Source: a virus (lineage: Duplodnaviria; Heunggongvirae; Uroviricota; Caudoviricetes). From it: a stretch of 12,800 bases of DNA. The notes beneath the pieces are model-generated. The model did no database searches, was not told the origin of the DNA, and saw nothing but the letters and a program-made list of their open reading frames with translations. The translations under genes were made by a program, and so were the position numbers. Positions 1 through 12,800 of the stretch are shown here, in pieces; within the stretch, counting starts at the first letter, position 1, and each line of letters begins with the position of its first letter. The DNA lies in IMG/VR virus record IMGVR_UViG_2563366940_000002, positions 1 to 12,800 of that record; one strand, 5' to 3'.

Positions 1-375
1 GCTGACCCAGCCACGAAACACATCCACCGTGCCATTCGGAAAACGGATTTTATAGGCCCGGACATCGCCGCTTTCAAACCAGCCTATAAGCCCTTTCTGG
101 CCTTGCTCTCCCGGTTTCCAGGCCAGCGTAAAACTGGTATCACCTGCAGATTTCTGCCCCTGCCCGGTCGCGGTCCAGTCCGCGTCTTCATCATCCAGGT
201 AGTTATCATCGTAGGATTCTGCCGTCATCTCGCCCGGCGTCAGATCCTTCACCTTAGCCAGTCGCTGCCAGTCATCGTCTGACAACGGGTTTGCATAAGC
301 ATCACCCTTGCCGTTGTAAACCCACAGAGTGGTACCGGCACCTTTTACCGGCTCAAGGGGATTTGGTGTTGCCAT
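1..375 (-). CDS. V: major tail protein, N-terminal part (gene continues beyond window start)
   Basis: Hand translation from ATG at 375-373 gives [57 protein letters not shown]..., colinear with remembered lambda gpV N-terminus ([33 protein letters not shown]...). Position downstream of U matches lambda order. Confidence 0.85.
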
Positions 376-382
376 ATCGTCC

Positions 383-778
383 TCACATCTCGTATGTAAT
401 GGAATAAGTCAGATCTGCAGAACTCCATAACGCCATATCGTCATCACGACGATACTCATAGCCCTGCGTAACCATCGTGGTAATCAGTCCTGCCAGTGCC
501 GGGATCGCGGTCATCGCCGGGTAAATCCGGCTTTCCATCCACTGATCGAGCTCTGAATCCGGTACCTGTGCCGGTAAAAACACCTCAATATGCAGTGTGG
601 CCCGCCAGGTATCTGCATCCAGCTCTTCACCGGTATACTCTGCATCCGTCAGATAAACCGCGATCGCAGGAAAATCCTCTTCGTCAAAAACAACGGGGCG
701 ACCATCAAACAGCGTCGCCCCGTGTTCATGCTGCTCGAGTGCATCCAGCACTGCGGCACGAATGTCAGTGTGTTTCAT
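383..778 (-). CDS. U: tail tube terminator protein
   Basis: 131 aa, same length as lambda gpU and colinear with it from memory ([14 protein letters not shown]...SSADLTY.ITYEM). ATG at 778-776 overlaps Z stop (ATGA coupling). Confidence 0.9.
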
Positions 779-1308
779 CGTTTTATCGCAATCCTCAGTT
801 GTTGTTTCAGCGCGTATGCCAGTTCTTTAGGCAGGCGTTCACGCCGGATACGGTCAACATTCTCATCAAATGCCTGTTTCAGTGGGGCCGCCATCGGGAT
901 TTTCACCACATCAATGGGGTAACGGTTTTTCCCGGCCACACGCTGCATGACATGCCAGCGACCATTTTTTAATCGCTGAATAAATGCCCGCTGATACCGA
1001 TGCTGACCGGCTTTAAGTATGCTGTTCGGGCGACGCCCCAGCATCCTGATCCCCAGCTTAATCACAGGGAGATCACCGCGGTTAACGATAATTCTGGCAT
1101 TCGGATTTCTGACCGTCGCCCGTTTCAGTCTGGACCGTTCCTTAACCAGTTTCCGGCGAACCTTTGTCTCCCGGGCAACCTGTGATGAAGACTGATTAAT
1201 CGCCGTTGTGGCCACGCGGTTAATGGCCATTGCTGAAGCCGCCGGAATGGCGTTTTTACGAACCCGGCTCAGATTGTCAATCGCCTGATCAAGCCCTTTT
1301 ATCGCCAT
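775..1308 (-). CDS. Z: tail completion / minor tail protein
   Basis: 177 aa; N-terminus MAIKGLDQAIDNLSR and C-terminal ...NGRWHVMQRVAGKNRYPIDVVKIPMA...RIRRERLPKEL... match remembered lambda gpZ; sits between FII and U as in lambda. Confidence 0.9.
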   Translation of the reverse strand: MAIKGLDQAIDNLSRVRKNAIPAASAMAINRVATTAINQSSSQVARETKVRRKLVKERSRLKRATVRNPNARIIVNRGDLPVIKLGIRMLGRRPNSILKAGQHRYQRAFIQRLKNGRWHVMQRVAGKNRYPIDVVKIPMAAPLKQAFDENVDRIRRERLPKELAYALKQQLRIAIKR

Positions 1309-1323
1309 AATTTCACCCTGCGT

Positions 1324-1677
1324 TTATCGTCGCCGGTTAACTGCGGGTGGTTGACCACGGTTGAGCCAGAGATAACAGCTGCCCCCGTCATCCGGAGAAA
1401 CACGATCCACCCAGAATATCTCACCATTAATGGTCAGCGTGTCACCACGCCGCACGGCACGAACCGTATCCGTCCGCACAAATAATGACGGGCTGCTTCC
1501 TTCAATACGGACCCCGCCACCGGCAAACCCCAGCGACTCCGGATCGTCAAAAACCCCCTGAACTTCGCTGCCACACTGTGCCCCCGAGGTGAACTGCGCA
1601 CAGAGCCCCATCACTTCAACGATCGTACTGTCTACCCCGGCGAGGGCAGCATCAAAGGCATTCTGAAAATCACGCAT
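1324..1677 (-). CDS. FII: head-tail joining protein
   Basis: 117 aa, same length as lambda gpFII; strongly colinear, including C-terminal FWVDRVSPDDGGSC.LWL.RG.PPAVNRRR. Confidence 0.9.
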   Translation of the reverse strand: MRDFQNAFDAALAGVDSTIVEVMGLCAQFTSGAQCGSEVQGVFDDPESLGFAGGGVRIEGSSPSLFVRTDTVRAVRRGDTLTINGEIFWVDRVSPDDGGSCYLWLNRGQPPAVNRRR

Positions 1678-2053
1678 ATTCAGCCGTTCCGTGCTGTATC
1701 ATGGCCGTTGCCAGTGATGATGGCACCAGAACACGCATACCCCGTAACGCCAGCTCAACGGGACGACCTGTCTCCGGGCAATACCCCATTACTTGCAGGC
1801 ACTTCCGTACCCGGACGGCTTTAACATCATCCGGAGCATCCGTGTTGTTCAACTGCTCACCATCGTCTGTGTGATTTTGATCAGCCCCGCTCTCATCAGA
1901 GTGCATAATGCCCTCCGGGGAAACAGCAAGCTCCTCTTCCCACTCAGACACACGTTGAGCAATATCCGCAGCACTCCCCGACATATCCGCCTCGCGCCCC
2001 AGCAGGCCAGCCAGTTGACGAAGACGATTCAGATTTTCTTCTTTTGTTGCCAT
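1670..2053 (-). CDS. FI: DNA packaging / head assembly protein FI-like
   Basis: Positional equivalent of lambda FI (between E and FII), acidic central region. Start moved from the ORF-track 2101 to internal ATG at 2053-2051, which has an AGGAGG Shine-Dalgarno 5 nt upstream; the longer ORF would run through the predicted terminator hairpin. Confidence 0.75.
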   Translation of the reverse strand: MATKEENLNRLRQLAGLLGREADMSGSAADIAQRVSEWEEELAVSPEGIMHSDESGADQNHTDDGEQLNNTDAPDDVKAVRVRKCLQVMGYCPETGRPVELALRGMRVLVPSSLATAMIQHGTAEYA

Positions 2054-2067
2054 CTCAGCCTCCTGTG

Positions 2068-2096
2068 AAAAAAGACACGGGGGCATTTCGCCCCCG
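2068..2096 (-). terminator. putative intrinsic terminator between major capsid gene E and FI
   Basis: 7-bp GC stem (2078-2084 pairs with 2090-2096, loop ATTTC) followed on the minus-strand transcript by UGUCUUUUUU (plus-strand A-run 2068-2073). Begins 9 nt after the E stop. Confidence 0.45.
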
Positions 2097-2104
2097 CTCA
2101 CGGA

Positions 2105-3133
2105 TTATTTCACCTGTACCACCACAAACTCATCCGGATCCGGCAGCACCATCAGCGGAGCGGACTGCGTCATGGTGAATTCACAGGACGGATCGCCCAC
2201 GGTCAGCCAGTGTTTCGGGTAACGGGAAGAAGCCACCACTCCTTCAGACAACGCCTGTGCATCCTTAATGGCACCATAGCAACGAATCCCCTCTGCCGCC
2301 GTATTCCCCAGCACCAGCATGCCCTCCGGCAGATAACGTTTTTCGGTACCGTCCTCTGCCACATAAGACGTTTTCGCCACCACAATGGCCAGATCGCCGT
2401 AATACCCCTTGAAGGACACCACTGCGCCCAGATCTTTCACTGCCGTTTCGAGTTGTGAATTTGAGCCGCGACGGGTATCCAGTTTTTCGCGGAACAGCTT
2501 AAAGCCATTCAGCAGACGCCAGACCGTACCGTCCATAATGGCGATATTCACAAGGCCGCTGGCCTGATCGCAGTAGAGGTCAATATCATGCGTCGGATCA
2601 AACGTATCACGGTCCTGCTCAGACCATTTTTTACCGTCAGCCTGCTCAATGTTATTTCCTTCAGAGCGCCCGAAATCCACCTCGACAGTATCAAACTGAT
2701 CCCCTTCCATGGTGTATTTGCCATACAGCACGGCATTCACCGCCTGCATTTCTTCCACCTGGACAATGGCGTGCTCTTCCTGTTTGAGGTTATCGGTAAT
2801 GATACGCAGACGACGGTAGGCCGGGTCGTTCAGCTGAGCCGGATCTTCACCAGGAAGGCGCTCAACCGCCTGCTGGTAATTAAATTCGTGTTTGGGCTTG
2901 ACGTAGCCCGGACGTAACACGCGGGTTTCACCACCGCGATGGCGAAGCACTTTTCCTTCAACGATCGGGGAGACATAGGCCGCCACCGGCGTTTTTCCGG
3001 TAATTTTGTCCAGCATCACCTCTTCGGTGTGGAAATTCACCGTACGGCGGAAAAACAGCTCCAGAAACAGCGCACGGAATTTCACTTTTTGTTCGGTATA
3101 ACCGAGTAACTGGCGGGTCGTAAACAATCCCAT
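2105..3133 (-). CDS. E: major capsid protein
   Basis: 342 aa versus lambda gpE 341 aa; long colinear blocks (SPIV.G.V.R.RGG, PGYVKPKHE, DPAYRR.RII, IAQVEEMQAV.AVL.GKYTM, KLDTRRGSNS.LETAVKDLG, MIQSAPLM.L.DPDEFV.VQ). AAGGAA Shine-Dalgarno upstream of ATG at 3133. Confidence 0.95.
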   Translation of the reverse strand: MGLFTTRQLLGYTEQKVKFRALFLELFFRRTVNFHTEEVMLDKITGKTPVAAYVSPIVEGKVLRHRGGETRVLRPGYVKPKHEFNYQQAVERLPGEDPAQLNDPAYRRLRIITDNLKQEEHAIVQVEEMQAVNAVLYGKYTMEGDQFDTVEVDFGRSEGNNIEQADGKKWSEQDRDTFDPTHDIDLYCDQASGLVNIAIMDGTVWRLLNGFKLFREKLDTRRGSNSQLETAVKDLGAVVSFKGYYGDLAIVVAKTSYVAEDGTEKRYLPEGMLVLGNTAAEGIRCYGAIKDAQALSEGVVASSRYPKHWLTVGDPSCEFTMTQSAPLMVLPDPDEFVVVQVK

Positions 3134-3162
3134 AAATCAGTTCCTTTCATTCAGAAATCAGT

Positions 3163-3182
3163 CAGGCCGCCATGGTGGCCTG
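3163..3182 (-). promoter_or_regulatory. GC-rich near-palindromic hairpin in the D-E intergenic region
   Basis: CAGGCCGCCATGGTGGCCTG is a near-perfect inverted repeat, 8 nt downstream of the D stop and about 30 nt upstream of the E start; no strong U-tract follows on the minus strand. Confidence 0.3.
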
Positions 3183-3190
3183 ATAACGTG

Positions 3191-3538
3191 TTACGGCAGA
3201 GCCGCGTGACTCAGGGCTGTGCCGGCAAAGGCATTTGCCTTTTTGTGTTCATCCACACTGTCAGGCCAGCGGATTGCCTCCGTCGCAAAGGTCCCCGACT
3301 TGTAATAGGTCAGCACCGTCTCTGTGCCTTCAAGCGGCAGTACCAGTATGCCAACCGCACTACCGGCTTTCTGTCCATCCCAGACCACCAGTTTCCCGGT
3401 GGCTTCATCCAGCATCAGGGGCGTCAGAGCCGGTGTTGCAGAAGAAATCCCGCTGCTGCCTGTGGCGGTATGAGCCGGATCATTACCGGCAAAAATACGT
3501 ACTTCCGCACGCTGTTCAGTGATGGTTTTCGTCACCAT
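3191..3538 (-). CDS. D: head decoration protein
   Basis: 115 aa versus lambda gpD 110 aa; motifs DPAHTAT, TPLMLD, KLV.WDG, YKSGTF and FAGTA shared with remembered gpD. Confidence 0.9.
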   Translation of the reverse strand: MVTKTITEQRAEVRIFAGNDPAHTATGSSGISSATPALTPLMLDEATGKLVVWDGQKAGSAVGILVLPLEGTETVLTYYKSGTFATEAIRWPDSVDEHKKANAFAGTALSHAALP

Positions 3539-3574
3539 TTTGTTAAAACCTCATATTGATGGTCAGCACTGACT

Positions 3575-5080
3575 TCATGGCATGGCCATGAGCATTTTCA
3601 CGTCCGCATCACCGTCTGCTGACGTCTGTGACACGCCACCCCGCACCGCTGCCGGTGAATGATTCGCCATGAAATGTTCAAACAAGGCGGTTGTGGATGC
3701 AGAGACCGGTTCGGCCTTACCTGATCCCGCAGCCAGCACAGCCCGGGCGTTCTCCACGGTCATTCCCGGGCAGGCCGCCAGTTTTTCAGCCTGCGCTTCT
3801 GCCCCTTTTGCCTCATCCAGGGCCATGATCTGATCACGAAGTGAGGGCCCGGCATTCGCCTGCGGTGAGGCAGCCAGGATCGGGCGGGCTTTTTCCACCG
3901 TCATCTCCGGCATCGCCGCCAGCGTTGCCGCCAGTTGTTCACGACCTTTCGCTTCTTCACACGCCATAATGCGATCGGCTTCACTCTGCGCGGATGCCAC
4001 CGGCTGCTGTGGTGCCGCCGCGGCCAGAATCGCCCGGGCCTGTTCAATGCTCATGCCCTGTTGTCCTGCCAGCATCGTGGCAAGCTGTTCACGTCCTTTC
4101 GCTTCCTGACACGTCAGGATCCCCATCACTCGCTGGTTCTCCTGCGCGGCAGCTTCCGTTGCAGTTAATTGCGGCATAGTGCCTCCTGTATCATGAGTGT
4201 TCAGCGCCGCAGCCATCACGCTGATGGCATCCGACGCATTGATTAATTCATCCGCCAGTCCGGCCTTAATAGCGGACTGACCTTCAAAAACGGCAGCCTC
4301 TGTCCCCGTGACAGCTTCCACAGACAGCCCCGTATACATCGCCACTTTTTCGGCAAACATCCGGTGCGCCGCATCAACCCGCTGCTGCATGTCCTGACGC
4401 ACCTCTGCCGGTAAGGCTTCAAACTGATTGCCATCCACCTTGTGCGCCCCGGCATAAATCAGCGTGATATCCACCCCGGCCTGCGCCAGATGACCGGCAT
4501 AGCTGACATGGCTCATCATCACGCCAATGGAGCCGATACGGGATGTCTGGGTAACCAGCCGTCGGGAGCAGGCCGACGCCAGCAGCATGGCTGCAGAACA
4601 GGCCGTGTCATTGCACAGTGCCCAGACCGGCTTCTGCTGACGGAGGCGGTAAATCATGTCAGCGCAGTCAAACGCGCCGGCGGCCTGCCCGCCCGGACTG
4701 TCAATGTCCAGCAGTACGCCCCGCACCTGGCTATCTGCCATTGCCTGCTGAAGACAGGCGACAATGCCGTCATAGCCTGTCATTCCGGAAAATGGCCGCA
4801 TACCGCCCAGCCGGTGCACCAGCGTGCCGGTCACCGGCAGTACAGCAATACCGTTCACCACCCGGTAAACACGGGCCGGTCGTTTACCTCCGGCCATGTA
4901 CTCGTCCGTTTCAGCCAGCATTCCGGGAGCATCAAGCTGTACCTGCTGTTGTGGTACCGAAAGACTTGCTGCCCCCATCTCGCGCCCGAGCGCGCAAAAG
5001 AAAACCCGCGCATAGGCGGGCTCCAGAAGCAGCGGTTCATTGAATGCTGCGGCAATAATGTGTGAAAGATTACGTCTCAC
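3575..5080 (-). CDS. C: prohead protease / scaffold protein (S49 ClpP-like peptidase with C-terminal Nu3-like scaffold domain)
   Basis: 501 aa; N-terminal two thirds colinear with lambda gpC (NEPL.LEPAYARVFFCAL, NGIAVLPV.GTLV, PGG.AGAFDCAD.I, KPVWAL.ND..CSA..LLASA.SRRLVTQT.R.GSIGVMM.H). GTG start at 5080-5078 with GAGGAG upstream. C-terminal third holds three tandem repeats (see repeat feature). Confidence 0.9.
   Translation of the reverse strand: MRRNLSHIIAAAFNEPLLLEPAYARVFFCALGREMGAASLSVPQQQVQLDAPGMLAETDEYMAGGKRPARVYRVVNGIAVLPVTGTLVHRLGGMRPFSGMTGYDGIVACLQQAMADSQVRGVLLDIDSPGGQAAGAFDCADMIYRLRQQKPVWALCNDTACSAAMLLASACSRRLVTQTSRIGSIGVMMSHVSYAGHLAQAGVDITLIYAGAHKVDGNQFEALPAEVRQDMQQRVDAAHRMFAEKVAMYTGLSVEAVTGTEAAVFEGQSAIKAGLADELINASDAISVMAAALNTHDTGGTMPQLTATEAAAQENQRVMGILTCQEAKGREQLATMLAGQQGMSIEQARAILAAAAPQQPVASAQSEADRIMACEEAKGREQLAATLAAMPEMTVEKARPILAASPQANAGPSLRDQIMALDEAKGAEAQAEKLAACPGMTVENARAVLAAGSGKAEPVSASTTALFEHFMANHSPAAVRGGVSQTSADGDADVKMLMAMP
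3686..4132 (-). repeat. three in-frame tandem repeats (about 47-53 codons each) in the scaffold domain of gene C
   Basis: Protein level: R[VI]MGILTCQEAKGREQLATMLAGQQGMSIEQARAILAAA / RIMACEEAKGREQLAATLAAMPEMTVEKARPILAAS / QIMALDEAKGAEAQAEKLAACPGMTVENARAVLAAG. DNA level: gttcacgacctttcgcttcttcacacgcc near 3946-3975 recurs as gttcacgtcctttcgcttcctgacacgtc near 4087-4116. Lambda gpC, from memory, has one such unit. Confidence 0.6.
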
Positions 5081-6662
5081 GTGGTGTTGTCTCCTCTTCC
5101 GGCCTGCGACTCTCCGCTATCTGCTGCTGATACGCCTGCGCTATCCACACCGGACGTGAGAGTCCGGCTTTTTCCCGCTCTGCAGATTCCCTGACCTGCT
5201 GGCGGAAAATGTCCTGATAATCCTCGCCCATCAGCGCCAGCTCTTTCTCATACGTGCTCAGTCCGGCCTCAATGCGCATCACTGATTCCTGAACCTCCTT
5301 GAGCCCGTCAATGGCCATTCTTCCGGCTCCAATCCACTCAGCCCGTGACCAGGCTGATCGCGCCTGATAAAAATCAAAACGTGCCCGTGGCGGACGAATA
5401 ATCCCCCGAAGAAGTGCCTCTTCCAGCCAGCAGGAAAACATCTGCGTGGCCAGCCGGGACGCAATAAATTTTCGCCGCCCCATAAAATAGCGCCACGACT
5501 CATTGGCGGATGCGCGGGCACTTGAATAACTGACCTTCGAGTAATCACGGGACAACTGTTCGTAGGAAACGCCAAGACCGGCGGCGATATACCGCAGCAG
5601 CGCCTGTTCAAGCGCCGAAAATCCATTGTCTGAATCCTGCGCGGTCTGAAGTTTCAGATCATCACCGGGGAAAAGGTGCGGAATTTTGACACCGCCCAGC
5701 GTCACGCTATTCGTGTCATACCAGGTGGAGAACTTCTCCAGAATATTAATAAGCGGATTATCCTTCTGCTCCTGTGGCGCGCCGGCGATATATTCAAAGG
5801 CCTTTTCGGTATCAAGTTCACTTTCAATCGTCGCTGCATACATCGCCTTCACTATGGCCGACTGAAGCTGTGTTGCCTGCAGGGAATCGAGCATCTTCAG
5901 CCGTTCCATGACGCTGTAAAACTGATTGGCCCCACGGGTCTGCCCGTCCTCCACCGGCTCGAAAATATGCAGCATGGCCGGACGCCCGGTGGGAAGTTCA
6001 CGCGGGATCCGTTCCCATCGTCCACTACCAGAGAACGGAAAATCATCCTCACAGATATGGTACGCAACGGCACGACCATATCGATCGACCTCCACACCGG
6101 CCCGCAGAAAACGGTTCCCCATACCGTGTCCTGGCGTGTCCACCCGTTTCGGACTCACGGCTTTAAAACGCGTACGGAATAACTGCGTGGTTTCCGTATC
6201 CCAGACCGGCTGCACAAAGATTTCGCCGTTAAACGCATGAACGCCCACACCTTCACGGATAAATTCCGTAAACGTGCGTTTCCCTTCCACGTCGATCTCG
6301 CCAAACATCCCTTCGGCGTATTCCGACCAGGCCGCCTCCACCTCATCGACAAAACTTTTTGCCGCAGTCTCCCGCATCCCCAGCCAGCGCCAGTTCGGAC
6401 GGTAGCTGATCAGAAACATATGCCCGACAATATGATCCTTATGCAGGGCCACCGCATTAGCCGCTATCCCGTTATTGCGCACCAGATCATCTGCCCGGGC
6501 ATTCCCCAGACGCAACGCAGGCAGCAGGGCTGCATCGGCACTCTGCGCTGGTGGCAACCACTCCGCCATTTGCCCGCCAAATCCTGCACCGCCACCGTTG
6601 TAGCTGAGGCTCTCCCGAAGCGGAACGCCGTTCACATCAATCAGGACAGGCGTTCGTTTCAT
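5070..6662 (-). CDS. B: portal protein
   Basis: 530 aa versus lambda gpB 533 aa; extensive colinear identity (GNARADDLVRNNG.AANA..LH.DHIVG, FEPVEDGQTRGAN.FYSVME..KMLD.LQ.TQLQSAIVKAMYAATIESELDT, LLRYIAAGLGVSYEQLSR.Y...SYS.ARASANESW.YFMGRRKF.ASR, GRMAIDGLKEVQE.VM.IEAGLSTYEKE). Overlaps W and C as in lambda. Confidence 0.95.
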   Translation of the reverse strand: MKRTPVLIDVNGVPLRESLSYNGGGAGFGGQMAEWLPPAQSADAALLPALRLGNARADDLVRNNGIAANAVALHKDHIVGHMFLISYRPNWRWLGMRETAAKSFVDEVEAAWSEYAEGMFGEIDVEGKRTFTEFIREGVGVHAFNGEIFVQPVWDTETTQLFRTRFKAVSPKRVDTPGHGMGNRFLRAGVEVDRYGRAVAYHICEDDFPFSGSGRWERIPRELPTGRPAMLHIFEPVEDGQTRGANQFYSVMERLKMLDSLQATQLQSAIVKAMYAATIESELDTEKAFEYIAGAPQEQKDNPLINILEKFSTWYDTNSVTLGGVKIPHLFPGDDLKLQTAQDSDNGFSALEQALLRYIAAGLGVSYEQLSRDYSKVSYSSARASANESWRYFMGRRKFIASRLATQMFSCWLEEALLRGIIRPPRARFDFYQARSAWSRAEWIGAGRMAIDGLKEVQESVMRIEAGLSTYEKELALMGEDYQDIFRQQVRESAEREKAGLSRPVWIAQAYQQQIAESRRPEEETTPRET

Positions 6663-6865
6663 AACCTCACTCCCAGCGGACGACGGCGACGGCGGGTTGT
6701 CCCCAGTACCGACTCCGCATCATTGATCGCCCGGTTAAGCTCATCCAGAGAAGCTGCCGTATATTCAATTCTGCGACCATCTTTCTGGACAGACACCACC
6801 CGTTTACCGGTTAATAAATCAAGGCGCGCCTGACGCAGCGCCTGCAGTTCAGCGACTGTAACCAT
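6659..6865 (-). CDS. W: head-tail connector / head completion protein W
   Basis: 68 aa, same length as lambda gpW; DLLTGKRVV.VQKDGRR.E.TA.S matches from memory. ATG at 6865 with GGAGGAG Shine-Dalgarno; start overlaps A stop, stop overlaps B start. Confidence 0.9.
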   Translation of the reverse strand: MVTVAELQALRQARLDLLTGKRVVSVQKDGRRIEYTAASLDELNRAINDAESVLGTTRRRRRPLGVRL

Positions 6866-8777
6866 TCACTCCTCCGGACAGCTTCGCTGCCAGTTCTTTA
6901 AGGGTTGGCCGGGTCGTCTCTTCTTCCCGGGATTTTGCCAGTACAGCCAGATCAAGCTGCCAGCGTTGCACGGACACACGTAATGCCGCGTAGGCATACA
7001 CCAGGCAGTCCAGCGCTTCGTTACGCCGCTTTTTGTTATCCCACAGCAGACGCATCTTTCCTTTTTCCCACTTCTCCACAAGCTCTTCCGCCACCAGTTG
7101 CTGCGCCTCTGTCTGCGAAAAAATCTCCGGATCATCAGGAAAACGGATGGCATACGACGTGGCTTCATCCGCAGGCGTGGGATCGGCTTTCATACGGGCA
7201 TAGAGAATTTCTTTTGCGGTGTCCGTCCCCACTTCACACAGATACACGCCCCGCTGATTGCGGGTTTTCGGCATGGTGATCACCGGCTTGCCATAGACAG
7301 ATGCGCCTTTTACCGGCAGCACCCGGAAAACACCGTGTTTTTTTGACCTCTGATAGACAATTTCACCATCGATCCCCCCGGTGTCCCAGCAGACACGGGA
7401 AATGGTCATTTCGGTTCCGTCTGCATGGCAGTATTTTTTGTTGATCGCCGCATCCACACGTAACAGCGTCTCTTCCTCATCGGGACGGCCCATAATGATG
7501 ATTTTATCCACCAGAAAAGCTTCCTCTCCCGGTGCCCATCCCCAGACATACATCTCAAAACGGTTTCGCTGCGAGTCAATGCCCGCCGTCAGATAAACCA
7601 CCCGGGCTGGCACCGCCGCCGTGTAATGCACGACCTTATCCATCAGTACCTGGTGATCGAGTTTTTCGCCCACGGCCTCTTCCCAGGTCTCGCCCAGCGT
7701 GGTGTTCACAAAGGTTTTCAGGCCGTTGGGATCTTTCAGTGCATCCAGCCAGTCATAGACTATCTGTACCCAGGTGGTGAACGGACTGTACGCCGTCCAG
7801 ATATGGAACGTGATGGAGCGCGGCGGCGGAATTTCATTATCCGCGGCGCTGAAAAACGTCAGACCGTCACGGGTCCACATCCCCGTGTTTTCACAGATCC
7901 ACCGCCCGTTGCTCTGGTCAAGCTCAGACTGATGGATCACGCAGCCATGATGTTCACAGAGGTAGAAAACGCTTTCGGGGCTGTCCTTCTCCCATTTAAG
8001 GCCAAAAGGCGTGGATTCATCGCCAAATTTCAGATACTGCTCCTCCCCACAGTGTGGGCAGGGCACATAAAAACGCATGAAATGCGCCGACTCGTTGGCC
8101 GCTTTTTCGATCTGGCAGGTGCCTTTGATTTTAGGCGTCGAGCCGCGAATGGATTTGGGCCATACAGAGCCCTCAATACGTTTATCCCCAAGCAGGGTTG
8201 GCGACCCCTCTTTTTCGACATCCGGTTCGAACGAGGAAAGTTCGTCATAGCAGACCACGTCCACGGATTTTTCACGGTAGTTTTTAGCGGCAGCCCCGCC
8301 CAGGCACCAGAAGCCCACGCCCGATGAAAAACGTTTCAGCGTGAGGGTATTATCACGATGTTTACGCCCAAACCACGGTGCAAGATCGAGTAAAACCGGC
8401 ACATCCCTGATCGTGGGTTCCACATGAGATTTCATAAAATCTTCAGCAGCAGAATCCGTGGGCTGGAAAAGAAGGCTGTTGCGTGATTTATGCTCAATAA
8501 AATAAGCCTCCACTCCCAGCAACATCTTTGTATAACCAACACGGGCAGATTTAATCAGATTAACAGTGCGGATCCGGTCATTCCCCATGCTGTTCATGAT
8601 GGCAACCTGAAACGGCAGTGTTTCCCACCGCCCCGGGGTGTAAGATGACTCTTTCGGAAGGTAATAATGTCGATCTGCCCACTGAACTGTCGTCAGAGGG
8701 ACAGGAATTTTTAGCGCAAGGAGGCCGGTTGCTATCGCTCCTGCAGAATTAGCCGCCCTCAGTTCGTCTGAAATCAT
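6849..8777 (-). CDS. A: terminase large subunit
   Basis: Colinear with remembered lambda gpA across the whole length ([141 protein letters not shown]). Start placed at the third in-frame ATG (8777-8775, AGGTGGA Shine-Dalgarno 5 nt upstream), giving 642 aa versus 641 in lambda; the ORF-track start at 8819 has no ribosome-binding site. Confidence 0.95.
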
Positions 8778-9297
8778 CAATCCACCTGCGCACATTCTCA
8801 CCGGCTTCAGAAGCCACATCGGATGCTTTCGCGATTTCAGTTTTCACAGCATCAAGATGTACGGGTGATATATCAGGGTATTTACGCTGCAGTGTCTGAG
8901 GGACACGGACAAGGATCCCTGATATATTCTGTGCCACTCGCTGAAAGATGTAGGTAAATAACTCCGTCTCGAGGACAAGGCCTTCCTCACGAGCATTTTT
9001 CAGCTCCTGTGCATCGGCCTGTGCCTTCGTCAGTCGGTAACGTTCGTAATCAATGGTGCAGGGCTGAAGGTCTGATTCGCTGGCAGCCCTCAAATCCTCG
9101 ATCTCTTTACGGAGTTTTTCGTTTTCAATATCAGCTTCCCTCTGCGCATACCACTGAATGGCAGCAGTTGTATCAAAAACTGATTCAGTCCCTTTCCCTC
9201 CACCAGAAACTAGTGGTAACCCCTGACTCTGCCAGGCGGTGATGGTCCTGACATCAACGCCAAAAATATCGGCCAGTTTTTTCTTATTGACGTTCAT
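8749..9297 (-). CDS. Nu1: terminase small subunit
   Basis: 182 aa versus lambda Nu1 181 aa; N-terminal helix-turn-helix [27 protein letters not shown]...GGGKG and [40 protein letters not shown] match remembered Nu1. Immediately adjacent to cosB. Confidence 0.95.
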
Positions 9298-9510
9298 ACA
9301 CTCCCCCGGGAACCAGAAAGGATCTGAAAATGGCGTTTTCTAACAAAAACAGCCTTTGTCAGATCCTTTTATATTTTTAAAATTCTATTGATAATCAATC
9401 AGTTAAAAAGAAGAACGGATCTGATTTTTCCCTAAAAATTTTCATAAATAGCGAAAACCCGCGAGGTCGCCGCCCCGTAACCGGTCGGATCGCCGGAAAG
9501 GACCCACGAA
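9298..9510. other. lambda-type cohesive end site cos (cosB - cosN - cosQ side)
   Basis: 9450-9475 (AGCGAAAACCCGCGAGGTCGCCGCCC) is the exact reverse complement of the remembered lambda left-end sequence GGGCGGCGACCTCGCGGGTTTTCGCT; the 12-nt cohesive end GGGCGGCGACCT maps to 9464-9475 on the minus strand. Flanking sequence on the lysis side (reverse complement GGCGATCCGACCGGTTACG) resembles the lambda right end; the AT-rich stretch 9300-9450 towards Nu1 resembles cosB. Confidence 0.85.
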
Positions 9511-9587
9511 ATGATAATTATTATCATCTATATAAGGTTTATCACAACATGTGTGTACGCCATCAAACCACGAGAAATAATCAATTA

Positions 9588-9620
9588 TGACGCAGGTATC
9601 GTATTAATTGATCTGCGTCA
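9588..9620. promoter_or_regulatory. 8-bp perfect inverted repeat TGACGCAG-N17-CTGCGTCA upstream of the ylcI-like gene
   Basis: Read directly: tgacgcag at 9588-9595 and ctgcgtca at 9613-9620, AT-rich 17-nt spacer, about 60 bp upstream of the 9682 start codon; a GATAAT -10-like hexamer lies between. Candidate operator or binding site; function not established. Confidence 0.3.
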
Positions 9621-9681
9621 AATTAACGTAAAAGCAACTTCAGATAATACAAATCAGCAACACTGAATATGGGGAAACATT

Positions 9682-9867
9682 ATGTCATCAAAGAACAGAA
9701 CCCGCAGAACAACAACCCGCAACATCCGATTTCCAAACCAGATGATTGAACAAATTAACATCGCTCTTGATCTGAAAGGTTCAGGAAACTTTTCAGCGTG
9801 GGTTATTGAAGCCTGCAGAAGAAGGCTGTCAACAGAGAGTTCGGGTATGAATTACATAATTAAGTAA
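9682..9867 (+). CDS. ylcI: YlcI-like small protein (DUF3950 family), function unknown
   Basis: 61 aa beginning MSSKNRTRRTTTRNIRFPNQMIEQINIAL..GSGNFSAWVIEACRRRL, which I recognise from memory as the YlcI/DUF3950 family found next to nohD (Nu1 homologue) in the E. coli DLP12 prophage. ATG at 9682 preceded by GGGGAAA; opposite strand to all structural genes. Confidence 0.7.
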   Translation: MSSKNRTRRTTTRNIRFPNQMIEQINIALDLKGSGNFSAWVIEACRRRLSTESSGMNYIIK

Positions 9868-9999
9868 CATGGTGTTCACAGAACACGCAGTTACCGGACA
9901 CATCAGTTTTCCATTCGCTCCCTGGCAGTACAGGCTTCCCCTCTGACGGGATAGCCTGAAAAAATAACACAGAAAATTATTTGTTATAATTAATATAAC

Positions 10000-10140
10000 T
10001 TACTCAAAAAAAAGCGACGAGAAAATCAGCATCAACGAACAATAAGCGCCAATACGTGATAACAAATGGCAGCCATATTTATCTGCAGTATAAGCAATGG
10101 ACAGGATAACCACTCCAGAAACCGTCAGCATAAAATCCAT
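10000..10140 (-). CDS. hypothetical 46-aa hydrophobic peptide (uncertain)
   Basis: Hand translation MDFMLTVSGVVILSIAYTADKYGCHLLSRIGAYCSLMLIFSSLFFE; ATG at 10140 with GGGGAAG about 7 nt upstream; two short hydrophobic segments. Lies in a T-rich (minus strand) stretch, where hydrophobic ORFs arise by chance, so it may be spurious. Confidence 0.2.
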   Translation of the reverse strand: MDFMLTVSGVVILSIAYTADKYGCHLLSRIGAYCSLMLIFSSLFFE

Positions 10141-10490
10141 TTGAACTTCCCCGGACAAAATCGACTCATCTAAAGATTTACAGCTCTTTTTATTATCAAT
10201 ATGTTAAAAGTAAAATAAACAGATGTTCAATAACACGAATACAAAAACGTGCTGAAATTCAATGAATCCATTTCTGTGTCATCAATTAATAGTGATAAAC
10301 ATCCGGCTTCTTCCACCATCGCACCGGACAGGCGACTATGAGGGGACAACGCCGCGCTCCGTTAACGCGGTAAACCCCGGTGTGTGTCGTTTTTGATTAT
10401 CCCCGCACACTCGCGCAGAGGAGTCTCCCTGTCGGGCTGCGGTCTCTGTTAATGCGGGGATACGGCGACAATACCGCGCATCAGCAAAAC

Positions 10491-10964
10491 CTATTTCAGG
10501 CACTGAGTGCGGATATAGTCCTGCGCCCCTTCCAGCTGCTTCTGCATCAGCATCAACCGTTCTCTGAGAGTGAAATAATCCCGTTCAGCGGTGTCTGCCA
10601 GTTGGGGGCCGGTTGCATTATCCACGCGGGCGGTGCCGGTGGCTTCACGCACGGGACCTGGACAGGTGGCGTTGATACGCAGGCGCTTACGACCAGCGGC
10701 AACGTCAGCGCGAAGAGTTTCATTTTCAGCTCTCGCATCGGCTAATTCCCTCGAGTATTTTGCATCGAGCGCAGCAACATCGCGCTGGCGCACCTGCATA
10801 TCAGTAATGGTTGCGTTCGCCAGCTTCAGTTCACTGGCTTTGTTATCGCGCTGCGCTTTGTAGGTAATCGCGTTATCACGGTAATGGTCTGTTGCCATCC
10901 ACAGCGCTCCACAGGCCACCAGCAGAATAACGATAAACGCGGAAAGCATTCGGTTTATGTTCAC
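10491..10964 (-). CDS. Rz: i-spanin (inner-membrane spanin subunit)
   Basis: 157 aa versus lambda Rz 153 aa; N-terminal transmembrane segment then [14 protein letters not shown]....[45 protein letters not shown]...REAT...[33 protein letters not shown], strongly colinear with lambda Rz. GTG start at 10964-10962 overlaps the upstream gene stop (GTGA). Confidence 0.9.
10553..10738 (-). CDS. Rz1: o-spanin (outer-membrane lipoprotein spanin subunit), embedded in +1 frame of Rz
   Basis: 61 aa; lipobox LPLVVSAC then proline-rich [27 protein letters not shown], matching remembered lambda Rz1 (LPLVVVGC...[27 protein letters not shown]). Entirely inside Rz in another frame, as in lambda. Confidence 0.85.
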
Positions 10965-11092
10965 CCCAGCAGCCCCGACGAAGACAACATCATCCAGGCC
11001 ATGGAAAGAAAAAGAGCAACCAGCATTAGTGAAAATGAAATGCCGACAATTACACAGAGGATCTTCGCCAGCGTTATGAGTTTGTCTGACAT
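10961..11092 (-). CDS. hypothetical 43-aa hydrophobic membrane peptide
   Basis: [43 protein letters not shown]; ATG at 11092-11090 preceded by AAGGGAGGA with ideal spacing; stop overlaps Rz GTG start; upstream gene stop TGA overlaps this Shine-Dalgarno. About 34 consecutive hydrophobic residues. The ORF-track version (73 aa from 11182) is trimmed to this internal start. Confidence 0.5.
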
Positions 11093-11106
11093 GCTTAATC
11101 CTCCCT

Positions 11107-11289
11107 TCACGATTTCAACGCAATGACCAGTTTTGCCAGCCCATACAGCATCGGGGACACAGCAACACCGACCGCCACCCACTTAATGGCAAAAGCCAGT
11201 GCTCTGCTGATGTCATCAGTTACAGGCGCTTTCAGTTCAAGGCCGTTTTTCATAGTCAACCTCAACAGAATTCGTTTATACTTTTCCAT
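11107..11289 (-). CDS. hypothetical 60-aa tail-anchored membrane protein
   Basis: [60 protein letters not shown]; ATG at 11289-11287 preceded by AAGGGAGAA; basic N-terminal region and one C-terminal transmembrane segment. Trimmed from the ORF-track start at 11322, which has no ribosome-binding site. Confidence 0.5.
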
Positions 11290-11322
11290 GTTCTCCCTTG
11301 CCTTATCCAAGGTCAGAAACAC

Positions 11323-11355
11323 AAAACCCCGCTTGCAGCCAACAAACGGGGTTTT
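11323..11355. terminator. putative bidirectional intrinsic terminator between endolysin and the small membrane-protein genes
   Basis: 13-bp stem with one mismatch (aaaaccccgcttg at 11323-11335 pairs with caaacggggtttt at 11343-11355), 7-nt loop, A-tract / T-tract arms, and T-rich flanks on both strands (plus: ttacttttatt; minus: gtgtttctg). Confidence 0.5.
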
Positions 11356-11445
11356 TACTTTTATTCACTTAGGTTTTGCCAGTTCTCAGGATTTCGTGTT
11401 ATCCGTCCGCATTAGCCAACGTCATTTTTCAACAAAATATTCTGC

Positions 11446-11979
11446 TTATTTGTCAATTCCCCAGCACGCCAGCGCGCTCTCCTGGTCACGCCGTGAGACC
11501 TGTCCATAGCAGTTATTTGAACGAATACGGCAGTCTCTGCCACCGTCCTTAATCCACCAGCGAATCGCCTCACATGCTCCCCTGCGATCGCCAGCATTAA
11601 TTCGTCTGTAAAACGTCGACGGGAAACACTTACCGGGACCAATGTTGTACGGACAGAATGACGCGATCCCCGCTTTCTGGGGTTCGGTCAATGGCACTTT
11701 GATGTTTTTCTCCACCCATGCCAGCGCCTTATCACGCTCAATGGCGTTAACCCGGTCGCATTTTTCCTTCGACAACTTCATGCCCGGAACGACAGGTTTG
11801 CCATCCACCAGGATGGCACCGCGGCAGATGGTCCAGATACCCGCGCCATCACGGTATGCCGTGGTGTGGTTACCTTCCTTTTCATCCAGAAACTGGTCGA
11901 GAATGTCAGGCGCAGGCGCACCAGCGGCAATCAGCGCCAGAACGGCAGCCGACAGGCCGTATCTGATTTTTGCGTTCAT
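11446..11979 (-). CDS. R: endolysin, T4-type lysozyme fold (GH24) with probable N-terminal SAR (signal-anchor-release) domain
   Basis: 177 aa; catalytic spacing E-x8-D-x5-T in FLDEKEGNHTTAYRDGAGIWT as in T4 lysozyme and P21-type R; Gly/Ala-rich weakly hydrophobic N-terminus (GLSAAVLALIAAGAPAP) typical of SAR endolysins; overall resemblance to remembered P21/DLP12 RrrD-type lysozymes. ATG at 11979. Confidence 0.9.
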   Translation of the reverse strand: MNAKIRYGLSAAVLALIAAGAPAPDILDQFLDEKEGNHTTAYRDGAGIWTICRGAILVDGKPVVPGMKLSKEKCDRVNAIERDKALAWVEKNIKVPLTEPQKAGIASFCPYNIGPGKCFPSTFYRRINAGDRRGACEAIRWWIKDGGRDCRIRSNNCYGQVSRRDQESALACWGIDK

Positions 11980-12084
11980 GGATATTTATCAGGATTTATC
12001 GGTTTCTGAGCCCTGGATATGTTTATCAGTTCCAGCCTGTTGCCTCAGGCTGCTAACAGGTCAATACAATCATGAGGATTATTT

Positions 12085-12357
12085 ATGGACAATAACACCA
12101 TTTCTCTACAGGAGTTGCTCGACAGCATTTCCAGGCTTCGGGAAGACGTGAATACCCTTACCGTCGCCTTCTCATATCTGGCATTCTCAATTCCAAGGGA
12201 ACAGATGCAATCAACGCTGGCATCAATCCAGTTTGAATCATGCAATCCCAAATGGTCTCAGGAACAACAAGACTCTTTCAGGCGGCTTGCTGTATTACTG
12301 GATGAAAAATATGCTGGTAAAATTACCATTTCGGCGGACTCTTCAGAGAACCCGTAA
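12085..12357 (+). CDS. hypothetical protein, 90 aa, no recognised family
   Basis: ATG at 12085 preceded by GAGGA at about 7 nt; possible sigma70-like TTGCCT ... TACAAT upstream (12040-12070, spacing slightly long). No transmembrane segment, N-terminal region looks helical. Overlaps the 3' end of the convergent 114-aa ORF by 35 nt, so one of the two may be spurious. Confidence 0.4.
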   Translation: MDNNTISLQELLDSISRLREDVNTLTVAFSYLAFSIPREQMQSTLASIQFESCNPKWSQEQQDSFRRLAVLLDEKYAGKITISADSSENP

Positions 12358-12667
12358 TTATTCCCGGTAGTTTTCCTCTGTAGGTTATCAACACATCCTG
12401 CGCCTCTAAAATTACGGGGCGCTTTTCCGGCGACTGCTCATCCCCTTCACATAACCCGGCAGCAACATCCAGGAAGACCTGTCTGATGCTCCTTCTGGCT
12501 GCTGCCTCATAAAACTCCAGCGCGGCACCTTCAACACGGTCCAGCGAGATGTCCAGGTCAAAAATTTCACCGTCAAAGCGTTTTTTGTCCCGTAACGCTA
12601 AAGTTACCGTAACTTTATTCTCAAAATTGCGGATCCCTTTCACAATCAGTTTATAGTTTTGAGTCAT
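12323..12667 (-). CDS. hypothetical protein, 114 aa, no recognised family
   Basis: MTQNYKLIVKGIRNFENKVTVTLALRDKKRFDGEIFDLDISLDRVEGAALEFYEAAARRSIRQ...; ATG at 12667-12665 preceded by GGGGAGAG. Same strand as the lysis genes; no transmembrane segment, so not a holin. The ORF-track 5' extension to 12799 is read-through of the IS end and is discarded. Confidence 0.5.
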   Translation of the reverse strand: MTQNYKLIVKGIRNFENKVTVTLALRDKKRFDGEIFDLDISLDRVEGAALEFYEAAARRSIRQVFLDVAAGLCEGDEQSPEKRPVILEAQDVLITYRGKLPGIITGSLKSPPKW

Positions 12668-12706
12668 TGAATTACTCTCCCCGTGCAGCCTTACGACGGT
12701 CCTCTC

Positions 12707-12800
12707 TGAACCGCCCCGGGAATCCTGGAGACTAAACTTCCTGAGAAAGAGGTAAACAGGATGACTAAAAATACTCGTTTTTCCCCCGAAGTCCGTCAAC
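12707..12800 (+). mobile_element. left end of an IS3-family insertion sequence (IS629 / IS1203-like), truncated by window edge
   Basis: 12707 onward reads TGAACCGCCCCGGGAATCCTGGAGACTAAACTTCCTGAGAAAGAGGTAAACAGG ATG ACT AAA AAT ACT CGT TTT TCC CCC GAA GTC CGT CAA, which I recognise from memory as the IS629-type left inverted repeat plus the start of orfA (MTKNTRFSPEVRQ). Confidence 0.85.
12761..12800 (+). CDS. IS3-family transposase OrfA, first 13 codons only
   Basis: ATG at 12761 preceded by AGAGG; translation MTKNTRFSPEVRQ matches the remembered N-terminus of IS629/IS1203 OrfA; truncated by window end. Confidence 0.8.
   Translation, partial: MTKNTRFSPEVRQ

What the first reader, a model, noticed from the sequence alone, without database searches (positions are those of the whole stretch)
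12707..12800. IS629-like element inserted 40 bp upstream of the lysis-proximal gene, cutting the late region off from its upstream regulator
In lambdoid phages the late operon (lysis plus morphogenesis) is driven from pR' under Q antitermination located just upstream of the lysis genes. The IS3-family left end begins 40 bp upstream of the 114-aa gene start, so anything that was upstream (Q, pR', cargo) is now separated by the IS or was deleted. This probably makes the prophage defective for induction-driven late expression, or places the late genes under an IS-derived outward promoter.
Basis: partly seen in the sequence, partly recalled or inferred. Interest (0 to 1): 0.5.

Follow-up and report, generated by a model that had tools for sequence, protein, structure and literature searches.

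The report
IS629 inserted inside a prophage holin gene
The last 94 bases of the window are the left end of the common insertion sequence IS629, and it sits inside the 3' end of the prophage's holin (lysis-timing) gene rather than in a promoter region upstream of the lysis genes, which is an ordinary kind of prophage damage.

Summary
Window 12707-12800 is 100% identical to the first 94 nt of a 1310-bp IS629 copy, and it begins 39 nt upstream of the 114-aa gene.

The reading of that position needs correcting. The 114-aa gene is ydfR (DUF1327), not the first lysis gene. About 1,095 complete E. coli genomes match the window up to 12709 and then continue into a 71-aa phage-21-type class II holin. 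Its stop codon is at window 12672-12674. The "40 bp spacer" is therefore the last 10 holin codons plus the ydfR ribosome-binding site. The IS sits in holin codon 61.

In uninterrupted relatives, Q and a pR'/tR'-like pair lie about 5.3 kb upstream of the holin. Several terminator-like hairpins lie in between.

The complementary junction (holin 1-61 joined to the IS629 right end) exists in one public contig. Together the two junctions fit a simple insertion with a 3-bp duplication.

I found no outward or residual promoter. Loss of late transcription is not supported, because Q-modified polymerase suppresses polarity.

The far side of this particular IS copy could not be recovered, so a deletion or rearrangement there is not excluded.

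Verdict: real, ordinary, low interest.

The parts
12707..12800 (+). Left end of IS629/IS1203-type IS3-family element. The IRL is about 12707-12731 and the orfA start is at 12761. The element runs off the window.
   Evidence: 100% identity over 94 nt to the start of the 1310-bp copy L001 12699-14008. The orfA of that copy matches Pfam HTH_Tnp_1 with E = 7.4e-13.
12672..12706 (-). 3' remnant of the phage-21-type class II holin gene: last 2 nt of codon R61, codons 62-71 (EDRRKAARGE) and the TAA stop at 12672-12674.
   Evidence: Identical to uninterrupted relatives through 12709. The intact 71-aa ortholog matches PF04971 'Bacteriophage P21 holin S' with E = 9e-33. Remnant translated.
12704..12706 (.). 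CTC (GAG on the late-gene strand), the presumed left copy of the 3-bp target-site duplication.
   Evidence: The complementary junction in L020/L034 ends ...AAAATCAGAG|IRR. Window IRL|GAGAGGACC plus that junction reconstitutes the uninterrupted AAAATCAGAGAGGACC with GAG duplicated.
12675..12682 (-). Shine-Dalgarno-like GGGGAGAG for ydfR, embedded in the last holin codons and retained.
   Evidence: Read directly from the sequence.
12323..12667 (-). ydfR (DUF1327), 114 aa, intact. It is the second gene of the lysis cassette in relatives.
   Evidence: Pfam PF07041, E = 4.5e-42. Annotated as YdfR family protein in relatives.
12085..12357 (+). Conserved 90-aa antisense ORF overlapping the ydfR 3' end.
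   Evidence: Annotated as hypothetical protein WP_000369850.1 in relatives. No Pfam match.
11446..11979 (-). Endolysin R, 177 aa, with an N-terminal Ala/Gly/Leu-rich hydrophobic stretch (SAR-type).
   Evidence: PF00959, E = 3e-24. Matches PDB 3HDE/3HDF lysozyme and 4ZPU RrrD. Hydropathy maximum lies at residues about 9-23.
10491..10964 (-). Rz spanin, with Rz1 embedded at 10553-10738.
   Evidence: PF03245, E = 5e-50. PF06085, E = 1.3e-20.
383..9297 (-). Intact lambda-like packaging, head and tail genes: Nu1, A, W, portal, S49 protease, D, E, FI, FII, Z, U.
   Evidence: ORF list. Annotations and Pfam of relatives. 100.000% identity over window 1-12651 to L017.

Best explanation
A 1310-bp IS629 element transposed into the holin gene of a lambdoid prophage. 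The holin is 71 aa, of the phage-21 class II type, and is partnered with a SAR-type endolysin. The insertion lies in codon 61, with the transposase genes antisense to the late operon, and most likely made a 3-bp duplication (GAG on the late-gene strand, CTC on the + strand).

What is shown: the IS left end abuts the last 35 nt of the holin ORF, and everything downstream is intact (ydfR, R, Rz/Rz1, packaging, head and tail genes).

What is inferred: the 5' 61 codons of the holin, the SASA esterase, the cargo genes and Q/pR' lie on the other side of the IS. The holin is then made as residues 1-61 fused to about 53 IS-encoded residues. It loses its charged tail EDRRKAARGE but keeps both transmembrane domains and the juxtamembrane K59/R61.

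After induction, Q-modified polymerase starting about 5.3 kb upstream would read through the IS, so late genes would still be expressed. The expected phenotype is altered or weakened lysis timing, not loss of late transcription. In plain terms this is an early step of prophage decay.
For: IS identity. About 1,095 complete E. coli genomes carry the uninterrupted ydfR-holin arrangement, covering at least 80% of window 12000-12800; the listed top matches stop exactly at 12709 and continue into the holin. Holin family. A modelled fusion protein (holin 1-61 plus read-through of the IS629 IRR with a 3-bp TSD) is matched at 100% identity over 114 of 114 aa by exactly one database protein, P0001, on contig L020 = OLIM01000034.1. 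Its junction is the exact complement of the window's junction. Three other IS629 copies in the same holin gene are simple 1310-bp insertions with 3-bp TSDs, and all three keep the upstream Q region (shown with the SASA esterase in L002 and L023): L002 with ATA, L021 with GGC, L023 with GTC. IS629 makes 3-4 bp TSDs, and 62% of its copies in O157 lie in prophages (PMC3271280). In relative L009 a promoter-like site and a terminator follow Q directly at 4398-4484, and further terminator-like hairpins precede the holin at 9781. Q-loaded polymerase is highly processive and lambda Q is a proven polarity suppressor (PMC12360218). C-terminal truncations of S21-68 are largely dispensable for pore formation down to K56, which is K59 here (bioRxiv 10.1101/2021.04.20.440580). 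The late genes are 100% identical to an unrelated assembly over 12,651 nt with all ORFs open, which fits a recent event.
Against: The window ends 94 nt into the IS, and I could not find its source. The exact left junction is absent from 5,426 complete E. coli genomes, the GTDB representative genomes, IMG/VR, the JGI metagenomes and the phage collection. The only contig with the complementary junction (L020) has IS5 at its IRL side instead of ydfR and carries a group II intron inside the IS. It is therefore a different or rearranged genome, and does not show that this window's IS is flanked by the holin 5' part. No other right-junction protein was among the 120 best of the 1,605 hits. The function of the re-tailed holin and read-through of the IS by the polymerase are inferred, not measured.
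Confidence: 0.62

Rival explanations
1. The IS marks a rearrangement or deletion end-point. After the original insertion, IS629-mediated deletion, inversion or recombination with another IS629 copy removed or relocated the holin 5' part, the cargo and Q/pR'. The late region would then be a promoter-less prophage remnant bounded by the IS.
For: The only recovered copy of the complementary junction (L020) has exactly this kind of non-matching other side: IRL|CTTTGG... lies in IS5 and there is no TSD. No second right-junction ORF appears among the 120 best hits. The scaffold L017, which is 100% identical to the window up to 12651, has a 2.5-kb N gap at this spot, and its flanking contig carries an intact holin with a different ydfR allele. 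The region is therefore structurally ambiguous in the closest relative. Only 21 of 47 IS629 copies in O157 have matching TSDs (PMC3271280).
Against: All three other IS629-in-holin cases seen in full are simple insertions with the upstream region intact. The 12.7 kb of late genes carry no decay. L020 is a 3.7x-coverage contig that passes through a multicopy IS and may be chimeric.
Confidence: 0.28
2. One reading: the IS lies in regulatory or intergenic DNA upstream of the first lysis gene. It either abolishes Q/pR'-driven late expression or supplies an outward promoter for the late genes.
For: The IS does lie between the downstream late genes and any upstream regulator.
Against: The 39 nt are holin coding sequence plus the ydfR RBS. 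Q and pR' lie about 5.3 kb upstream in relatives, and transcription already crosses several terminators. Q suppresses polarity. No sigma-70-like site on the minus strand was found in 12300-12800. In the full IS629 copy no promoter-like site was found on either strand, and only one weak terminator-like site lies on the strand antisense to the transposase genes, which late transcription would read.
Confidence: 0.06
3. The junction is an assembly artefact: a contig end that ran into a multicopy IS by mis-joining.
For: The window stops 94-95 nt into a repeat. The nearest relative's contigs break here with a 95-nt overlap typical of a k=96 assembly graph.
Against: The break falls exactly at the IS terminal TG. 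It is complemented base-for-base, with a 3-bp duplication, by an independent contig. Mis-joins do not produce this.
Confidence: 0.04

Closest known systems
IS629 / IS1203 (IS3 family) insertions in lambdoid prophages of E. coli and Shigella
   Same: Same element (100% over the visible 94 nt). Same habit of landing in prophages (62% of copies in O157 genomes). The 3-bp target duplication matches the reported 3-4 bp (PMC3271280).
   Different: This exact site (holin codon 61) is in none of the 5,426 complete E. coli genomes searched. Only the left junction is visible here.
IS3-family elements in the Q-to-S interval of Stx2a and related phages
   Same: IS629/IS1203-like elements interrupt the late transcription unit between Q and the lysis genes (PMC10462455). 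Relatives L001 and L005 of this prophage also carry an IS3-family element between the tRNAs and the SASA gene.
   Different: Those lie in cargo genes or intergenic DNA (nanS-p, stx to nanS-p). Here the IS is inside the holin ORF itself. VT2-Sakai has no IS between Q and S, so it is not a precedent.
Phage 21 lysis cassette: S21 pinholin, SAR endolysin R21 and Rz/Rz1
   Same: The holin ortholog is PF04971 with a dual start (M1/M4), two hydrophobic segments and the tail KIREDRRKAARGE. The endolysin resembles R21 (PDB 3HDE) and RrrD and has an N-terminal weakly hydrophobic segment. Rz with embedded Rz1 is present.
   Different: ydfR and an antisense 90-aa ORF lie between S and R. From my own knowledge, not tested here, this matches the Qin cryptic prophage order essQ-ydfR-rrrQ-rzpQ in K-12. 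The holin here is cut after residue 61.
Polar insertions in the lambda late operon, suppressed by Q
   Same: An insertion inside a Q-dependent late transcription unit. Q-modified polymerase is expected to read through it (PMC12360218, citing Forbes and Herskowitz 1982).
   Different: Not tested for this prophage's Q (PF06323 type in relatives), nor for IS629 read in the antisense direction.

Membership tests
IS629 (IS3 family) | Terminal inverted repeat starting 5'-TG, about 25 bp, imperfect | tested here: met
   Window 12707-12731 equals the IRL of the 1310-bp copy in L001. IRL and IRR match at 23 of 25 positions. Only the left end is in the window.
IS629 (IS3 family) | 1310 bp with orfA (HTH) and orfB (DDE/rve) joined by a -1 frameshift | not testable with these tools
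   Only 94 nt (13 orfA codons) are in the window. The identical-start copies in L001, L021 and L023 are 1310 bp with orfA/orfB and an annotated frameshift.
IS629 (IS3 family) | 3-4 bp target-site duplication | tested here: inconclusive
   The left flank is CTC. The complementary junction with the same triplet is in L020/L034, which is a different contig whose other side is IS5. It could not be tested in the source genome.
Phage-21-type class II holin (PF04971, pinholin) | Sequence membership of the interrupted gene | tested here: met
   The 35-nt remnant is 100% identical to the 3' end of the 71-aa gene in relatives. That gene scores 112.5 bits (E = 9e-33) against PF04971.
Phage-21-type class II holin (PF04971, pinholin) | Partner endolysin with an N-terminal signal-anchor-release domain | tested here: met
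   The endolysin N-terminus MNAKIRYGLSAAVLALIAAGAPAP has its hydropathy maximum there. It is homologous to PDB 3HDE/3HDF and RrrD. SAR behaviour itself was not assayed.
Phage-21-type class II holin (PF04971, pinholin) | An intact, functional holin in this locus | tested here: not met
   The ORF is interrupted in codon 61, and only codons 62-71 are in the window.
Lambdoid late operon under Q / pR' antitermination | Q gene followed by a promoter and an immediate terminator upstream of the lysis genes | not testable with these tools
   Not within the window. In relatives (L009) Q lies at 3725-4414, a promoter-like site at 4398-4426, a terminator at 4461-4484, and the holin at 9781. Presence beyond this IS copy is unknown.

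The most novel reading that the evidence does not exclude
The phage-21-type holin gene of these E. coli prophages may be a recurrent IS629 target. I saw four independent sites in a 216-nt gene: at the start codon, codon 21, codon 45 and codon 61. All were in the same orientation, although that was partly an ascertainment effect. This could reflect selection for lysogens whose prophage lysis clock is disabled or re-timed. The codon-61 allele could still make a pore-competent holin with a new 53-residue tail that changes lysis timing.
Probability: 0.15. Interest if true: 0.35.

Novelty: already known. Interest (0 to 1): 0.15.

Why it matters
The finding mostly matters for annotation. The locus should be called a holin pseudogene interrupted by IS629, not an intact lysis cassette with a displaced promoter. 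The prophage should be scored as possibly lysis-impaired rather than transcriptionally dead. The insertion is a rare lineage marker: it is absent from 5,426 complete E. coli genomes. Beyond that it is one more example of IS-driven prophage decay, with no new mechanism involved.

Tried and rejected
1. Finding the source or extension. Exact left-junction patterns were searched in genome contigs, viral contigs and metagenome contigs, by megablast in complete E. coli genomes and in phages. None hit.

2. Exact-protein look-ups with YdfR, the portal variant and the major capsid protein. No contig carried the junction. The capsid variant was far too common to help. The portal variant led to L017, which is 100% identical over 12,651 nt but has a 2.5-kb N gap exactly here.

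3. Right-junction pattern. It hit only OLIM01000034.1, which is the same contig as L020.

4. VT2-Sakai as a precedent for an IS between Q and S. Rejected, because no IS lies in that interval.

5. Residual or IS-derived promoter. None was found by consensus scan.

6. Rfam scan of the whole window. No hits.

7. The in-frame 158-aa ORF 12323-12799 that extends ydfR into the IS. I treat it as a by-product of an open frame, because ydfR keeps its own RBS and ATG.

8. A statistical claim of an IS629 hot spot in the holin. About 3 of roughly 1,600 distinct IRR read-through ORFs are holin fusions. This is a modest enrichment once the IS629 preference for prophages is allowed for, so I do not claim it.

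Full report
**Observation**

The window carries, on its minus strand, the late region of a lambda-like prophage: tail genes U, Z and FII, then FI, E, D, the S49 protease, the portal, W, terminase A and Nu1. These are followed by Rz/Rz1, a 177-aa lysozyme and a 114-aa ORF at 12323-12667.

From 12707 to the window end the sequence is TGAACCGCCCCGGGAATCCTGGAG.... It is 100% identical to the first 94 nt of a 1310-bp element in locus L001 (12699-14008). That element has 25-bp imperfect inverted repeats (23/25), orfA/orfB and a 3-bp direct repeat. RefSeq annotates such copies as IS3-family / IS1203-family transposase with a programmed frameshift. The orfA ATG is at 12761.

**What the 39-nt "spacer" is**

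A megablast of window 12000-12800 against 5,426 complete E. coli genomes found about 1,095 genomes covering at least 80% of the query. The best of these are 100% identical, and all of the listed ones stop at 12709. The whole window behaves the same way, at 99.7-99.8% identity over 1-12709.

In those genomes the sequence continues into a 71-aa gene annotated as a class II holin. Its product is MYQMEK...NLYFKIREDRRKAARGE, and it matches Pfam PF04971 "Bacteriophage P21 holin S" at E = 9e-33.

The stop codon of that gene corresponds to window 12672-12674. Window 12672-12706 encodes the last two bases of codon R61, then EDRRKAARGE and the stop. The ydfR Shine-Dalgarno sequence (GGGGAGAG, 12675-12682) lies within those codons.

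The IS is therefore inside the holin ORF, not upstream of the first lysis gene. The 114-aa gene is YdfR/DUF1327 (E = 4.5e-42). It is the second gene of an S-ydfR-(antisense orf90)-R-Rz/Rz1 cassette.

The endolysin has an N-terminal Ala/Gly/Leu-rich hydrophobic segment and resembles the phage 21 lysozyme structures 3HDE/3HDF and RrrD. The cassette is thus of the pinholin plus SAR-endolysin type.

**Where the regulator is in intact relatives**

In L001, L003-L010 and L023 the order upstream of the holin is: DUF968, RusA, Q (229 aa, PF06323), a Ser/Thr kinase, a PP2C phosphatase, a methylase remnant, three tRNAs, a SASA-family esterase, then the holin.

In L009 a promoter-like site (4398-4426) overlaps the end of Q. 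A strong terminator hairpin follows directly (4461-4484), which is the classic pR'/tR' layout. Several more terminator-like hairpins occur before the holin start at 9781, including one just upstream of it at 9713-9741.

Q and pR' are therefore about 5.3 kb from the holin. Late transcription in this phage type must already be terminator-resistant. Q-loaded polymerase is described as highly processive, and lambda Q as a proven polarity suppressor (PMC12360218). That is why I do not accept the claim that a 1.3-kb IS cuts the late genes off.

Consensus scans found no sigma-70-like site on the late-gene strand in 12300-12800. In a full IS629 copy they found no promoter-like site on either strand, and only one weak terminator-like site on the strand antisense to the transposase genes.

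**The other side of the IS**

The window ends 94 nt into the element, and I could not find its source. The exact left junction is absent from:
- the complete E. coli genomes;
- the GTDB representative genomes;
- IMG/VR;
- the JGI metagenomes;
- the phage collection.

I then modelled a simple insertion: window up to 12706, IS629, CTC, and the rest of the holin. Translated from the holin start, it predicts a 114-aa fusion of holin 1-61 and VNRPGFPGECF....

A search of the 5.8-billion-protein set returned exactly one protein with 100% identity over all 114 residues. This is P0001, on a 7.5-kb ENA contig (L020 = OLIM01000034.1).

On the late-gene strand its junction reads ...AAAATCAGAG|TGAACCGCCCCGGGTTTCC, and the window reads ...GGGGCGGTTCA|GAGAGGACCG. 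Together they reconstitute the uninterrupted AAAATCAGAGAGGACCG with GAG duplicated. This agrees with the reported 3-4 bp duplications of IS629 (PMC3271280).

L020 is nevertheless not the window's genome. Its IS629 carries a group II intron, and its IRL abuts IS5 rather than ydfR.

The complementary junction thus shows that a simple insertion at this site existed. It also shows that at least one descendant, or a chimeric assembly, has a rearranged other side.

The nearest relative of the window is scaffold L017, with 12,651 of 12,651 bases identical. It has a 2.5-kb N gap exactly here. The two contigs flanking the gap overlap by 95 nt, and the upstream contig carries an intact holin and a ydfR allele differing at window position 12652. 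This looks like an unresolved assembly branch and says nothing firm about the structure.

**Analogous cases**

Three other IS629 copies sit in the same holin gene. Each is exactly 1310 bp, has a 3-bp duplication, and has the transposase genes antisense to the late operon:
- L002 (strain MLI104K2): TSD ATA, at the start codon, separating the RBS from the ATG.
- L021 (isolate AHB12): TSD GGC, at codon 21.
- L023 (GCA_900448405.1): TSD GTC, at codon 45, with Q, kinase, PP2C and SASA all still upstream.

They make a simple insertion with a retained upstream region the most likely state here too. IS3-family elements elsewhere in the Q-to-S interval are also known in Stx2a phages (PMC10462455), and in relatives L001 and L005.

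**Likely consequence**

If the upstream part is retained, the holin would be made as residues 1-61 plus 53 IS-encoded residues. Both transmembrane segments and K59/R61 are kept, and the tail EDRRKAARGE is lost.

In a nanopore screen of S21-68, C-terminal truncations were largely dispensable for pore formation down to K56, which is K59 in 71-aa numbering. C-terminal fusions to a truncated S21-68 also still formed pores (bioRxiv 10.1101/2021.04.20.440580).

I therefore expect a holin with altered or weakened timing rather than a null. I also expect normal Q-dependent late transcription reading through the IS. Both points are inferences.

If the far side has instead been deleted or rearranged (rival, about 0.28), the late genes have no detectable promoter and the region is an inert remnant.

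**Verdict**

The finding is real but ordinary: an IS629 copy in a prophage holin gene. Novelty: already known kind. Interest: low.

Noticed in passing
L002 about 9888-11200; L021 9734-11043; L023 8134-9443; window 12707-: There are four independent IS629 insertion sites in or at the same 216-nt holin gene: the start codon, codon 21, codon 45 and codon 61. The three seen in full are each 1310 bp with a 3-bp TSD, and all four have the same orientation. The orientation is partly an ascertainment effect of my queries. The enrichment over a prophage baseline is modest and unproven.
   Followed up: partly
L020 2445-6024 (= OLIM01000034.1): This IS629 copy holds the complementary holin junction. It is itself interrupted by a group II intron (507-aa RT/maturase, about 2.26 kb), and its IRL abuts IS5 with no TSD. 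The cause is either IS-mediated rearrangement or a chimeric low-coverage (3.7x) assembly.
   Followed up: partly
L017 1512-4011; window 12652: Scaffold KE136617.1 (GCA_000407745.1) is 100% identical to window 1-12651, then has a 2.5-kb N gap. The contigs on both sides overlap by exactly 95 nt. The upstream contig has an intact holin (T20S) and ydfR with E6 instead of K6. This suggests either two near-identical lysis modules in that strain or an unresolved assembly branch.
   Followed up: partly
window 12085-12357 (+): A conserved 90-aa ORF lies antisense to the late operon, between R and ydfR, and overlaps the ydfR 3' end by 35 nt. It is annotated as hypothetical in RefSeq relatives and has no Pfam match.
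   Followed up: no
window 12323-12799 (-): The ydfR reading frame stays open upstream through the holin remnant and the whole visible IS end (158-aa TTG ORF). It is probably meaningless, but gene callers could use it to extend ydfR wrongly.
   Followed up: no
L009 4486-9630 (relatives; beyond the window): The Q-to-holin interval of this prophage family carries a eukaryote-like Ser/Thr kinase, a PP2C phosphatase, a methylase remnant, tRNA-Ile and two tRNA-Arg, and a 617-aa SASA (NanS-p-like) esterase. L001 and L005 have an extra IS3-family element there.
   Followed up: no
P0013, P0021, P0024, P0079, P0010: Other holin variants from E. coli and Shigella sonnei have the native sequence up to about K66-G70 followed by unrelated tails. 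This suggests further insertions or rearrangements in the C-terminal tail of this holin.
   Followed up: no
window 9300-10300: An AT-rich stretch (34-42% GC) lies between Nu1 and Rz. It contains a + strand 61-aa YlcI/YnfO (DUF3950) gene at 9682-9867 and presumably the cos region. No Rfam hit was found anywhere in the window.
   Followed up: no
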